Positions 40,601 to 43,600 of a DNA stretch of 64,000 nt are shown in pieces. Origin of the DNA: Mizuhopecten yessoensis (taxonomy: Eukaryota). The stretch lies in contig NW_018407245.1 of NCBI RefSeq assembly GCF_002113885.1, positions 64,775-128,774 of the forward strand. Reading direction: 5' to 3'. Position numbers: made by a program. Every line of letters begins with the position of its first letter. The stretch's first letter is position 1.

Positions 40601-43600
40601 TGGTAAGACTGAAGGTTTACACTGCTGGAGGTAGTAAACATACTCACCTCCTGTAGGACCGGCAAGACTGAAGGTTTACACTGCTGGATGTAGTAAACAT
40701 AATCACCTCCTGTAGGACCGGTAGGACTGAAGGTTTACACTACTGGAGGTAGTAAACATACTCACCTCCTGTAGGACCGGTAAGACTGAAGGCTTACACT
40801 GCTGGAGGTAGTAAACATACTCACCTCCTGTAGGACCGGCAAGACTGAAGGTTCACACTGCTGGATGTAGTAAACATAATCACCTCCTGTAGGACCGGTA
40901 GGACTGAAGGTTTGCACTGCTGGAGGTAGTAAACATACTCACCTCCTGTAGGACCGGTAGGACTGAAGGTTTACACTGCTGGAGGTAGTAAATATACTCA
41001 CCTCCTGTAGGACCGGTAGGACTGATGGTTTACATTGCTGGAGGTAGTAGATGAGGAGGAGGATGTAGGCATAGGAGGACAGACTTCCCCTGGATGCGTC
41101 TCCAATCTCACAAACCTGTCAAGTTTATGAAATTGATATATCGTTACTTTCTATCTTAATAAGATCTGTATGGGAAAAAATGCTGTTTAATTTACACAAA
41201 ACATTTTTTTGTATCTTATTTTATGGCAAAATTGTTAACAATTTTTGTAGCTCAGTTTTATATATGATGTATGAATTATATATTTACACACCGTGACGTT
41301 ATAATACGCTATGCTGTATGGCTTGTCTATGTCCCGTTTCATAAATGCCTGTGGGTGTGTCTGTATTTGTTTGTGTACTTTACTGGACACTGGACGATTG
41401 ACCAATCGACAGGTGCCCTCACTGCAGGGACAGTTCACACGAATTTCCCGTCACCACTAGCACCGTATATAAGGTCCCGGGGCCCTAGGCAGCAGGTCTG
41501 CATTATTTACAGACGTCCTGCGATGCACTTCAGTATCTTTATATATATGTACATTGTATTCTATACAAAGCTGTGAAGCTGAGTGTACTTCTTACCTAAT
41601 TCTGGAGACAGCCGTTTCCGGTATGTATTGCTATATTTAATTACTGATAATTATATTTATATGTAAAACATATCGCTGTCAATATATTCTTTTCTATTTC
41701 GTTTATACGTTCCGTTTATATAATCCGGTTATACATTCCAATGTGAGTTTTATGAAAGGTAATTTTATATTATTTGAAGGTTTTCTTTGTATTTGTCATC
41801 ATCGTGAGTCCGCAAATTAAATGAAAGATCATCAAATTCATATGGAGTTTGACCTCTGTTTCCAACCCTGACCCAAGGTTAAATAGAAAAACATATAATT
41901 TTTTGCCTGAATCATAAATAAGTCATGTTGGGGTATGTGCATGTCACCCTGAATCAGGAATGGTGTGGAAAATATCAAATGATTCACATTTAACATCACT
42001 TGTAGTTGTCTTGGTTTCTTATTTCAAAACATCAGATGGGCCTTAATTTCCACAAAAGGAAAAGAAATTGAAAATCTTACCTTAGCAAATACTTTAAAGG
42101 CATAGCCAAGACACTTGACTCGGGGATCTAAGGAGGCATACAGTTGGATCATCTTCGTATTGTACAGTGCCTAAGGATGTATGACAAAAAATATATGAGA
42201 ACAAATCTTACCGACAGTTACACAAAATAGCATCTCCCTGTATCAAATCTTACCAACAGTTATCAAAATAGCATCTACCTGTATCAAATCTTACCAACAG
42301 TTATACAAAATAGCATCTTACTGCATCAAATCTTACCAACAGTTATACAAAATAGCATCTACTCGTATCAAATCGTACCAACAGTTATACAAAATAGCAT
42401 CAACCTGTATCAAATCTTACCAACAGCTATACAAAATAGCATCTGCCTGTATCAAATCTTACCAACAGTTATCAAAATAGCATCTACCAGTATCAAATCT
42501 TACCAACAGTTATACAAAATAGCATCTACCTGTATCAAATCTTACCAACAGTTATACAAAATAGCATCTAACTGCATCAAATCTTACCAACAGTTATACA
42601 AAATAGCATCTACCTGTATCAAATCTTACCAACAGCTATACAAAATAGCATCTAACTATCCAGTAAGTTATATTAACTAATGCCTACCTCTAATATATCT
42701 TACCAGTAAGTTAATCAAACTACTGTCTCCCTCAACTATGTCTTACCAGTAAGTTATACAAATTAATGTCTCCCTCTAAAATATCTTACCAGTAATTTAT
42801 ACAAACTAATGTTTCCCTCTTATATATCTTACCAGTAAGTTATAAAAACTAATGTCTCCCTCCAATTGGCTGCGTCTGTGTTTGAACTTGACGATTGGAA
42901 CCTTGGCTGTGGTGATAGGAAACACATTGTAAAGGCCACGGTGCTTCTTCAGCTTCTGTGTGATTTCCTCTATCAGCATCACAGGGTCCAGACCCTGTGT
43001 AAACCGACACCACAACGTAGGTTATATTTGGAAGAGATAAAATGTGCATTCCGACAAAAAAAAAGGTTTAAACAAACCCTGAATACATAAAAAAAACCAG
43101 GACAGTAACATTTTCATTTTCTGTTGCTAGTGACAAAAAAAGACAGAAATAGGTATGCTAGGACTCATTGATTCACCATGTGTGAAGTAAATATAATGAA
43201 ATATTCATTAAGGGAAATGTGTAATGAGCCAACAAGAAACCAGTATCTGATGATCAAGTAAAAATTTAAAAGATAATTACCTAGACCATGTCTATAAGCC
43301 CCAAAATAATATCCACTTTTCAAATTTCTTTAGAAAAGAACTTTCACCTGTTGCCTTTTTTAATCACAATGAAAAAGAATTCACTTCTTTGTTCTGGCAT
43401 TAATATTTTTACTGCATGAGTAAGATATACAATACAGTAACATCAAAATTATTGTATACGGGAATGGTGTGGGAGGTACTAACCTCACTTGTGGGCTTGC
43501 CCTGGAAGGTCACACAGAGGTCAAGGTCACTCAGTTTAAATCCAAATCCGTTATGGGATGACCCAAACAAGTGGAGCTCAGCATCTGTAGACATAGAGGT

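What the first reader, a model, noticed from the sequence alone, without database searches (positions are those of the whole stretch)
42205..42862. Exon-14 donor array shows a polar gradient from exon copy to satellite
Seen: the copies nearest the exon reproduce the codons around the third catalytic Asp (EGDISFYNLL) with CTG|GTAAGA donors at 42790, 42747 and 42704 (43-nt steps). Farther copies have drifted into a homogenised 42-bp unit that still keeps TG|GTAAGA. Read-through hits TAG before the second donor. The array fills almost the whole intron, to within about 35 nt of the next acceptor. Inference: retention of GTAAGA while the rest diverges may indicate selection on decoy donors.
Basis: partly seen in the sequence, partly recalled or inferred. 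Interest (0 to 1): 0.65.

Follow-up and report, generated by a model that had tools for sequence, protein, structure and literature searches.

The report
Splice-junction minisatellite filling a scallop intron
One intron of a scallop RNA-uridylyltransferase gene consists almost entirely of tandem copies of the preceding exon's end plus its splice signal, a known kind of repeat ("mirage" minisatellite) that looks like tolerated filler and not a selected set of decoy splice sites.

Summary
The window is not human. It carries a TUT4/7-like terminal uridylyltransferase gene of the scallop Mizuhopecten yessoensis on the minus strand. Exon 14 (42994..42833) ends CTG|GTAAGA. Intron 14 is 662 nt, and 631 nt of it is a tandem array whose first unit spans the exon-intron junction. 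The array has three full 43-nt copies, one truncated copy without a donor, and eleven 42/41-nt units. GTAAGA is intact in 13 of 15 intronic units.

- The hexamer is no better conserved than many other 6-mers of the unit.
- An exon-derived 10-mer is retained equally well.
- A sister array in the same gene varies at its donor at the average rate.
- A third sister array has lost GT in 32 of 33 copies.

The structure matches a published class: amphioxus "mirages" (PMC3087553) and the human F7 intron-7 VNTR (PMC1557585).

The wider pattern is more notable. In this one gene, 4 of 25 donor junctions and 1 of 25 acceptor junctions carry such duplications. Six of the 9 large intronic arrays start within 47 nt of a donor. 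Whether any decoy donor is used could not be tested, because no RNA-seq was available.

The parts
42833..42994 (-). Coding exon 14 of the TUT4/7-like gene. It encodes ...KVPIVKFKHRRSQLEGDISFYNLL, part of the palm domain with the presumed third catalytic Asp.
   Evidence: Exon mapping of database protein P0001 at 100% identity. Pfam MTPAP-like_central, E 3.3e-10. Aligns to solved TUT4/TUT7 chains, E about 1e-15. The 'third catalytic Asp' label is inferred from knowledge of the family and was not tested by a call.
42827..42832 (-). Authentic 5' splice site GTAAGA (9-mer CTG|GTAAGA).
   Evidence: This is the only donor that joins ...YNLL to ALYNTK... as in P0001 and in the 19 long homologues matched.
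42820..42862 (-). First repeat unit (43 nt), spanning the junction: the last 30 nt of exon 14 plus the first 13 nt of the intron.
   Evidence: Unit alignment; TRF; the repeat finder family D13.
42691..42819 (-). Three full 43-nt intronic copies (u01-u03), each with an exact CTG|GTAAGA pseudo-donor. They differ from the first unit by 5, 6 and 5 of 43 nt.
42806..42808 (-). In-frame TAG reached by read-through, or by use of any pseudo-donor.
42660..42690 (-). Truncated 31-nt unit (u04) at the joint between the two unit types. Its donor and about 11 nt are missing.
   Evidence: Spacing of 31 nt instead of 42/43 nt, and the unit alignment.
42200..42659 (-). Eleven homogenised 42/41-nt units (u05-u15). 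Nine read TTG|GTAAGA, one TTG|GTACGA and one TCG|GTAAGA.
   Evidence: TRF 10.8 copies at 92% matches.
42171..42199 (-). The only non-repeat part of intron 14: pyrimidine-rich tail ending in the acceptor AG.
   Evidence: The branch point is inferred to lie here or in the last unit; it was not tested.
42081..42170 (-). Coding exon 15 (ALYNTKMIQLYASLDPRVKCLGYAFKVFAK).
43876..45138 (-). Sister array in intron 12: 36-nt unit, about 35 copies. The first unit holds the last 7 nt of exon 12 plus the donor. The intronic copies read CGG|TTATGT, so GT is kept in 1 of 33.
39134..41049 (-). Sister array in intron 16: 59/60-nt unit, about 32 copies. Each unit is the last 48 nt of exon 16 plus GTGAGT and following bases. 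GAG|GTGAGT is exact in 21 of 30 intronic copies. A 60-nt subtype lies at the distal end.
26148..26323 (-). Two-copy 104-nt tandem duplication of the end of exon 25 (about 43 nt) plus donor and early intron. The second donor is intact (TTG|GTAAGT).
   Evidence: (family D14, 99% over 72 nt).
51129..51252 (-). Acceptor-side counterpart: a 70-nt-spaced duplicate of the acceptor plus the start of exon 7, lying upstream in intron 6 (83-85% identity).
   Evidence: family D17; A07.

Best explanation
Intron 14 carries a 'mirage'-type minisatellite.

Proposed history (inferred from the array's anatomy). A 43-bp tandem duplication spanning the exon-14/intron-14 junction arose by slippage or unequal exchange. 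It covered the last 30 nt of the exon and the first 13 nt of the intron. The upstream copy kept serving as the exon end and donor, so every further copy fell inside the intron and was tolerated. The array then grew. Copies at the exon-side edge stayed out of homogenisation and decayed independently; these are the 43-nt units. A diverged, 1-nt-shorter variant was amplified distally and recently; these are the 42-nt units. That history produces the stepwise polarity.

Proposed present state (not shown). The pseudo-donors persist because the copies are young and evolve in concert, not because they are selected. The spliceosome is presumed to use the most upstream donor, by exon definition or 5'-to-3' scanning as shown for human F7 intron 7. 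Any pseudo-donor product carries the TAG at 42808-42806 and would be lost to nonsense-mediated decay.

Shown directly: the array's anatomy, its homology to the exon, the absence of special conservation of the donor, and the sister arrays.
For: (1) The first unit spans the junction and the copies are head-to-tail.

(2) The 42-type unit is homologous to the junction; 0 of 500 shuffles reached its score.

(3) The donor hexamer is not specially conserved within or between unit types. The same holds in the 59-nt sister array, and in the 36-nt sister array GT survives in 1 of 33 copies.

(4) The same architecture recurs at 4 of 25 donor junctions and 1 of 25 acceptor junctions of this gene. No junction copies lie outside the adjacent intron, which indicates local tandem duplication.

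(5) 10474 of 27110 intron nt (38.6%) of this gene are tandem repeats, so array formation is rife here.

(6) The annotated protein P0001 and the 19 long homologues matched all read across the first donor (...YN.L|A/G...).

(7) Use of any pseudo-donor gives a premature TAG, and 43 nt also shifts the frame.

(8) The intronic copies u01-u03 and the 42-type units keep TTG (Leu) where the exon now has TTT (Phe). Leu is the state in 15 of the 19 long homologues. The copies therefore look like fossils of an older exon, not maintained elements.

(9) Published precedents exist. Amphioxus mirages show homogenisation inside clusters with the cluster boundaries excluded, and they do not disturb splicing (PMC3087553, passages read). 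The F7 IVS7 pseudo-sites are functional but silent because the most upstream site wins (PMC1557585, abstract and Discussion read).
Against: No transcript data were available. First-donor use rests on an automated gene model and on protein conservation only.

Strong pseudo-donors do persist in 2 of the 3 multi-copy junction arrays. The 9-mer TGGTAAGAT is unchanged between unit types at nominal p = 0.04.

Six of the 9 arrays with at least 5 copies start within 47 nt of a donor. The Fisher combined p is 1.7e-4, computed post hoc. The count of 4 donor-straddling duplications exceeds a uniform-seeding expectation of 0.6-1.1, with p between 0.003 and 0.026. A purely random neutral origin does not predict this bias.

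The copy number comes from a single assembly. Two protein-database searches with array ORFs found no independent copy.
Confidence: 0.72

Rival explanations
1. The pseudo-donors are functional and under selection. They might act as a U1 snRNP landing pad that boosts recognition of the first donor or suppresses premature cleavage. Alternatively they might act as unproductive splice sites that tune TUT4/7 mRNA level through nonsense-mediated decay.
For: GTAAGA is intact in 13 of 15 intronic units, and the 9-mer is unchanged between unit types (nominal p 0.04). GAG|GTGAGT is exact in 21 of 30 copies of the 59-nt array. Every pseudo-donor product would carry a premature stop.
Against: The donor is no better conserved than other windows (19 of 42 and 39 of 59 windows are equal or better). 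An exon-derived 10-mer is retained as well. The 36-nt array lost GT in 32 of 33 copies. One 43/42 joint unit lost its donor entirely. The units are not independent samples.
Confidence: 0.1
2. The array is neutral today, but its position is not random. In this genome 5' splice junctions would be preferred seeding points for tandem duplication, through a splice-site-linked mutational process. Alternatively, donor-side duplications would be the class most easily tolerated.
For: 4 of 25 donor junctions against 1 of 25 acceptor junctions carry straddling duplications. Two further arrays start at about +3 and +10 of their introns. Six of 9 large arrays start within 47 nt of a donor, Fisher p 1.7e-4. 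The Poisson p for at least 4 straddlers is 0.003-0.026.
Against: This is one gene, and the tests were devised after seeing the pattern. Three of the 9 large arrays lie far from any donor, and other arrays in the window are not next to known exons. Amphioxus mirages are reported at both kinds of boundary (PMC3087553). No mechanism is known.
Confidence: 0.13
3. Assembly artefact: the array, or its size and order, results from mis-assembly of repeats.
For: Only one assembly was seen. The array-ORF searches found no independent copy. An aberrantly assembled mirage is reported for amphioxus (PMC3087553, legend of Additional file 4, passage read).
Against: The units carry private substitutions, an ordered two-type structure and higher-order periods of 167/209 nt. 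The exon and both splice sites are intact and match the annotated protein exactly. Four similar structures occur in the same gene.
Confidence: 0.04
4. A satellite carried into the intron by a mobile element.
For: Bivalve genomes are known to hold repeat-bearing mobile elements. This is recalled knowledge and comes from no call.
Against: The units are homologous to the adjacent exon end and donor. No copies exist elsewhere in the gene.
Confidence: 0.01

Closest known systems
'Mirage' minisatellites of amphioxus (Adh3, troponin C, globins BflGb6/BflGb9, PGBD5)
   Same: Both are tandem repeats whose unit spans an exon-intron boundary, so exon fragments and splice signals are repeated inside the intron. 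Unit sizes run from tens to about 160 bp. Homogenisation occurs inside the cluster, with the cluster edges excluded. Regular splicing is reported undisturbed (PMC3087553 passages; PMC3902484 passage). The original paper, Canestro et al. 2002, is not held and is cited second-hand.
   Different: The host is a mollusc, not a cephalochordate. Four donor-side cases and one acceptor-side case lie in a single gene. The array here has split into two unit types and fills 631 of 662 nt of the intron. No transcript or polymorphism data exist here. My searches listed no report of mirages in molluscs; I judged this from the listed titles and abstract starts only.
Human F7 intron-7 37-bp VNTR with 5' pseudo-sites
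   Same: Both are minisatellites whose first element spans the exon/intron boundary. The authentic donor is followed by several identical or near-identical pseudo-donors that compete for one acceptor (PMC1557585, abstract and Discussion read).
   Different: In F7 the silence of the pseudo-sites and the rule that the most upstream site wins were shown with 50 constructs. Here that is only inferred. F7 has 5-9 sites, whereas this intron has 14 GT-bearing pseudo-sites of two types.
Intron gain or change by tandem duplication of AG|GT proto-splice sites (Rogers model; internal gene duplication)
   Same: A tandem duplication that includes splice signals is absorbed by splicing instead of disrupting the reading frame (discussed in PMC3087553; search listing).
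   Different: No new intron is created here. An existing intron, at a position shared with other bivalves and vertebrates, is lengthened.

Membership tests
Mirage-type minisatellite (tandem repeat spanning an exon-intron boundary) | Head-to-tail tandem array of minisatellite-size units | tested here: met
   TRF gives 43 nt x 4.8 copies and 42 nt x 10.8 copies. Unit spacings are 43, 43, 43, 43, 31, then 42/41 nt.
Mirage-type minisatellite (tandem repeat spanning an exon-intron boundary) | One terminal unit is the real exon-intron junction, and the other units repeat exon sequence plus the splice signal | tested here: met
   The first unit is the last 30 nt of exon 14 plus 13 nt of intron. The copies translate to EGNISLYKLL, EGDINLYNLL and EGDSSLINLL. 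The junction query hits the adjacent intron only.
Mirage-type minisatellite (tandem repeat spanning an exon-intron boundary) | Regular splicing is not disturbed: only the authentic site is used | not testable with these tools
   There are no RNA-seq or cDNA data. The only indirect support is that the annotated model P0001 and the 19 long homologues matched read across the first donor.
Mirage-type minisatellite (tandem repeat spanning an exon-intron boundary) | Length instability or polymorphism between haplotypes | not testable with these tools
   Only a single assembly was available, and no eukaryotic DNA collection was on hand. The array-ORF protein searches found nothing.
Mirage-type minisatellite (tandem repeat spanning an exon-intron boundary) | Concerted evolution inside the cluster, with edge units excluded | tested here: met
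   The 42-type units show 23 variant cells in 11 units x 42 columns, about 5%. The edge 43-type units differ by 5-6 of 43 nt, mostly at private sites.
F7-IVS7-type array of silent 5' pseudo-sites | Pseudo-sites identical or nearly identical in strength to the authentic donor | tested here: met
   The authentic donor and the 3 proximal copies match CAG|GTAAGT at 7 of 9 positions. Ten of the 42-type sites match at 6 of 9 and one at 5 of 9.
F7-IVS7-type array of silent 5' pseudo-sites | The most upstream site is used exclusively, and the pseudo-sites become active when it is mutated | not tested
   This needs minigene or transcript data.
TUT4/TUT7 terminal uridylyltransferase (host gene) | C2H2 finger, two nucleotidyltransferase/PAP-associated modules and CCHC knuckles | tested here: met
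   Per-exon Pfam hits were MTPAP-like_central, NTP_transf_2, TUTase, PAP_assoc (twice), zf-CCHC (twice) and a weak C2H2 match; 9 of the 11 exon ORFs scanned had a hit. The window is 100% identical to 'terminal uridylyltransferase 4-like [Mizuhopecten yessoensis]'. PDB TUT4/TUT7 chains match at E about 1e-15.

The most novel reading that the evidence does not exclude
In the scallop genome, 5' splice junctions would be preferential birthplaces of minisatellites. That would make mirage arrays a major route of intron growth. In this gene the long introns owe most of their length to arrays anchored at or within a few nucleotides of the donor. It would imply either a splice-site-linked duplication process or an unusually strict rule that the first donor wins in molluscs. 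Scallop genes would then be a natural, genome-scale version of the F7 pseudo-site experiment.
Probability: 0.2. Interest if true: 0.6.

Novelty: new member of a known kind. Interest (0 to 1): 0.36.

Why it matters
Fourteen near-consensus GT-bearing pseudo-donors sit between a catalytic-core exon and its acceptor, yet the conserved protein requires the first donor. This makes the intron a clean natural test of how a spliceosome chooses among equivalent 5' splice sites, now in a mollusc.

The gene also holds junction duplications at several stages: a 2-copy stage, two multi-copy arrays that keep the donor, and one array that has lost it. Together these stages suggest how such arrays are born, expand, diverge and inflate introns.

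For annotation it is a practical warning. Exon-like fragments and strong donors inside introns of bivalve genes can mislead gene finders.

As a single locus it remains an ordinary, probably neutral, member of a described class.

Tried and rejected
(1) RNA structure masking of the pseudo-donors. A partition-function fold of exon 14, intron 14 and exon 15 (914 nt) gave a mean unpaired probability of 0.23 for the authentic donor against 0.11-0.54 for the pseudo-donors. There is no selective masking.

(2) Independent copies of the arrays in the protein collection. The 149-aa plus-strand ORF across the 42-nt array gave no hit at E <= 0.001 among 3049 word-sharing candidates. The 117-aa ORF across the 59/60-nt array gave no hit with 1 candidate. 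These results say nothing either way.

(3) A known RNA family in the window. There were 0 matches at Rfam gathering thresholds.

(4) Homology of the other donor-proximal arrays to their junctions. The 29-nt array (intron 18) and the 73-nt array (intron 1) show none: 232 and 489 of 500 shuffles reached the observed score. The 28-nt array (intron 9) and the 30-nt array (intron 22) begin at about +10 and +3 of the intron but hold no exon sequence.

(5) Mobile-element origin. Rejected because of the exon homology.

(6) Reading the original mirage paper (Canestro et al. 2002). It is not held.

The only contig collection open holds bacteria and archaea.

The mirage alignments and trees of PMC3087553 (Additional files 4-7) were not seen.

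They were corrected at the same tool.
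Full report
Origin of the window. The window is not human. The 54-aa peptide of the exon in question is 100% identical to 'terminal uridylyltransferase 4-like [Mizuhopecten yessoensis]' (P0001, 1668 aa). The next best hits come from other scallops and bivalves; 28 proteins scored E <= 1e-5 among 33 candidates. All 1668 residues of P0001 can be laid on the minus strand from 57409 to 25293 as 26 coding exons, and all 25 introns begin with GT. Pfam scans of single exon ORFs found palm-domain/nucleotidyltransferase, PAP-associated (twice), CCHC-knuckle (twice) and weak C2H2 matches; 9 of the 11 ORFs had a hit. 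Solved TUT4 and TUT7 chains match exon 14 at E about 1e-15. All searches used single exons or single ORFs. The step of joining exons into a spliced model for a search was left out. Exon coordinates came from laying the database protein back on the window. The single N at 18961 was left untouched.

Check of the observation. The exon ends ...EGDISFYNLL with CTG|GTAAGA. Exact CTG|GTAAGA copies follow with their last exon-like base at 42790, 42747 and 42704. Read in the exon's frame these copies give EGNISLYKLL, EGDINLYNLL and EGDSSLINLL. A fifth unit is cut to 31 nt and has lost its donor and about 11 nt. It forms the joint to eleven units of 42/41 nt. Nine of these read TTG|GTAAGA, one reads TTG|GTACGA and one reads TCG|GTAAGA. 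Tandem Repeats Finder reports 43 nt x 4.8 copies at 82% matches and 42 nt x 10.8 copies at 92% matches, with higher-order periods of 167 and 209 nt. The 42-nt unit is homologous to the exon junction. Its alignment score is 18 and 0 of 500 shuffles reached it. The two consensus units share 30 identical, 11 mismatched and 4 gapped columns. Read-through meets TAG at 42808-42806, before the second donor. Only about 29 nt of non-repeat sequence remain before the acceptor. One correction is needed: the polarity is a step, not a slope. The three full proximal copies differ from the exon-spanning unit by 5, 6 and 5 of 43 nt. After the truncated unit there is a plateau near 70% identity.

Test of the inference.
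- Within the eleven 42-type units there are 23 variant cells and 1 lies in GTAAGA. However, 19 of the 42 circular 6-mers have as few or fewer, and a 12-column block elsewhere has none.
- Between the two unit types the donor block (9 columns) is unchanged, but so is a 10-column exon-derived block with no splice role.
- Given 30 of 41 identical columns, six named columns all match with probability 0.13. Nine match with probability 0.04, and that length was chosen after looking at the data.
- Units of one array are copies of copies, so each array is close to one observation.

Sister arrays in the same gene. The gene itself supplies replicates.
- Intron 16 holds about 32 copies of a 59/60-nt unit made of the last 48 nt of exon 16 plus GTGAGT and following bases. 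In 30 intronic copies the 9-mer is GAG|GTGAGT 21 times, GT is kept 29 times, and the hexamer holds 8 of 89 variant cells. Thirty-nine of 59 windows are as well or better conserved, so the donor varies at the average rate.
- Intron 12 holds about 35 copies of a 36-nt unit that begins with the last 7 nt of exon 12 plus the donor. Here 32 of 33 intronic copies read TT where the exon copy has GT.
- Intron 25 has a 2-copy, 104-nt duplication of the exon end plus donor. It is 99% identical over 72 nt and the donor is intact.
Donor retention is thus seen in young or homogenised arrays and lost in another. This matches drift plus concerted evolution and does not match consistent selection. Predicted RNA structure does not hide the pseudo-donors selectively: the unpaired probability is 0.23 for the real site against 0.11-0.54 for the others.

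What it is. A scan of all 25 donor and 25 acceptor junctions against the whole gene gave these results:
- Junction-straddling copies occur at four donors (exons 12, 14, 16, 25) and one acceptor (exon 7, with a 70-nt-spaced copy in intron 6).
- Every copy lies in the adjacent intron only.
- One further array (intron 22) matches only the intronic side of its junction.
These are local tandem duplications across splice junctions. The upstream copy keeps its role, and the extra copies land in the intron and are spliced out. The intronic copies of the exon-14 end carry TTG (Leu) where the exon now has TTT (Phe). Leu is the residue in 15 of the 19 long homologues matched, including Pecten maximus. 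The copies therefore look like fossils of an earlier exon state, and the duplication predates that substitution. The edge units carry mostly private changes, while the distal units are about 95% alike. This is the usual behaviour of tandem arrays: turnover in the interior and exclusion of the edges.

How it most likely works. What is shown is the anatomy, the homology, the lack of special donor conservation, the premature TAG for any pseudo-donor product and the frame shift of 43 nt. What is inferred is that the spliceosome uses the first donor and ignores 14 downstream GT-bearing sites of nearly equal strength (7 of 9 consensus matches against 6 of 9), and that any slips are removed by nonsense-mediated decay. 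Support for first-donor use is indirect. The annotated model and the 19 long homologues matched read ...YN.L|A (18) or |G (1) across this junction. Five short ORFs from other genomic contigs read straight on into V (GT...) at the same point, which shows that the intron position is old.

Comparison with what is known. The class is described. [quoted passage not shown] They are reported in Adh3, troponin C, globin genes and PGBD5. They occur at 5' and 3' boundaries, with units of 10-160 bp, concerted evolution inside clusters and undisturbed splicing (PMC3087553, passages read; PMC3902484, one passage read). The founding paper is not held. In humans, the F7 intron-7 37-bp VNTR has its first element across the exon 7 boundary. 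Its 5-9 identical pseudo-sites are functional but silent because the most upstream site is selected (PMC1557585, abstract and Discussion read). The scallop array meets the structural criteria of this class. The behavioural criteria (splicing undisturbed, length polymorphism) could not be tested. Four literature searches listed no report of such arrays in molluscs; this rests on the listed titles and abstract starts only.

What remains curious. Tandem repeats make up 10474 of 27110 intron nt (38.6%) of this gene. Six of the 9 arrays with at least 5 copies start within 47 nt of the donor; three of these reach into the exon and two begin at about +3 and +10. Sliding each array uniformly inside its intron gives a combined p of 1.7e-4. 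Four donor-straddling duplications exceed a uniform-seeding expectation of 0.57-1.10, with p between 0.003 and 0.026 depending on the span used. These tests were devised after seeing the pattern and cover one gene. They suggest, without showing, that donor junctions are favoured seeding or survival sites. Three of the nine large arrays and several arrays elsewhere in the window are not donor-linked.

Verdict. The origin from the exon copy is supported, and selection on decoy donors is not. The locus is a new member, in a mollusc, of the mirage / F7-type junction minisatellites, and it is most likely neutral. RNA-seq, other scallop genomes and the supplementary alignments of the amphioxus paper could not be consulted.

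Noticed in passing
window 39134-41049 (-): Intron 16 is mostly a 59/60-nt array, about 32 copies, of the exon-16 end (YYLQQCKPSVLPVLQE) plus GTGAGT. A distal 60-nt subtype gives it the same two-type polar layout as the array under study.
   Followed up: yes
window 43876-45138 (-): Intron 12 holds a 36-nt array, about 35 copies, that begins with the last 7 nt of exon 12 plus the donor. The GT has become TT in 32 of 33 intronic copies, although the unit length is a multiple of three.
   Followed up: yes
window 26148-26323 (-): A two-copy 104-nt duplication of the exon-25 end plus donor, 99% identical over 72 nt. It looks like a junction array at its birth stage.
   Followed up: partly
window 51129-51252 (-): An acceptor-side duplication. 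A copy of the acceptor plus the first 48 nt or so of exon 7 lies 70 nt upstream in intron 6, at 83-85% identity. Its CAG has changed to AAG.
   Followed up: partly
window 47950-49780 and 32219-33000 (-): Two large arrays (28-nt in intron 9, 30-nt in intron 22) start at about +10 and +3 of their introns without containing exon sequence. The 30-nt unit recurs in a second block at 31544-31747.
   Followed up: partly
window 25293-57409 (-): 38.6% of all intron sequence of this gene is tandem repeat. The introns longer than about 1.5 kb owe most of their length to one array each.
   Followed up: yes
window 42833-42848 (-): The exon has TTT (Phe) where all three full intronic copies and the 42-type units have TTG (Leu). 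Leu is the common state in other bivalves, so the intron preserves an older version of the codon.
   Followed up: partly
Predicted pairing is high for the first four donors (unpaired probability 0.11-0.23). I take this to be a coincidence of the YNLL codons.
   Followed up: no
window 4483-5208 (+) and 9318-9938 (+): Two paralogous open reading frames of 242 and 207 aa end in the similar C-termini ...TSLYAVGLVYVLYAE and ...TSLYALGLVYAMYAE. They were not scanned against any library.
   Followed up: no
window 61477-63603 (+): A 709-aa open frame rich in Ser, Lys and Asp, possibly one large exon of another gene. It was not examined.
   Followed up: no
window 13938-17055 and 328-2299: Large arrays outside the TUT gene: 48 nt x 65 copies, and 33-nt and 62-nt units that share a motif. 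They are not next to any exon I identified, so not all arrays here are donor-linked.
   Followed up: no
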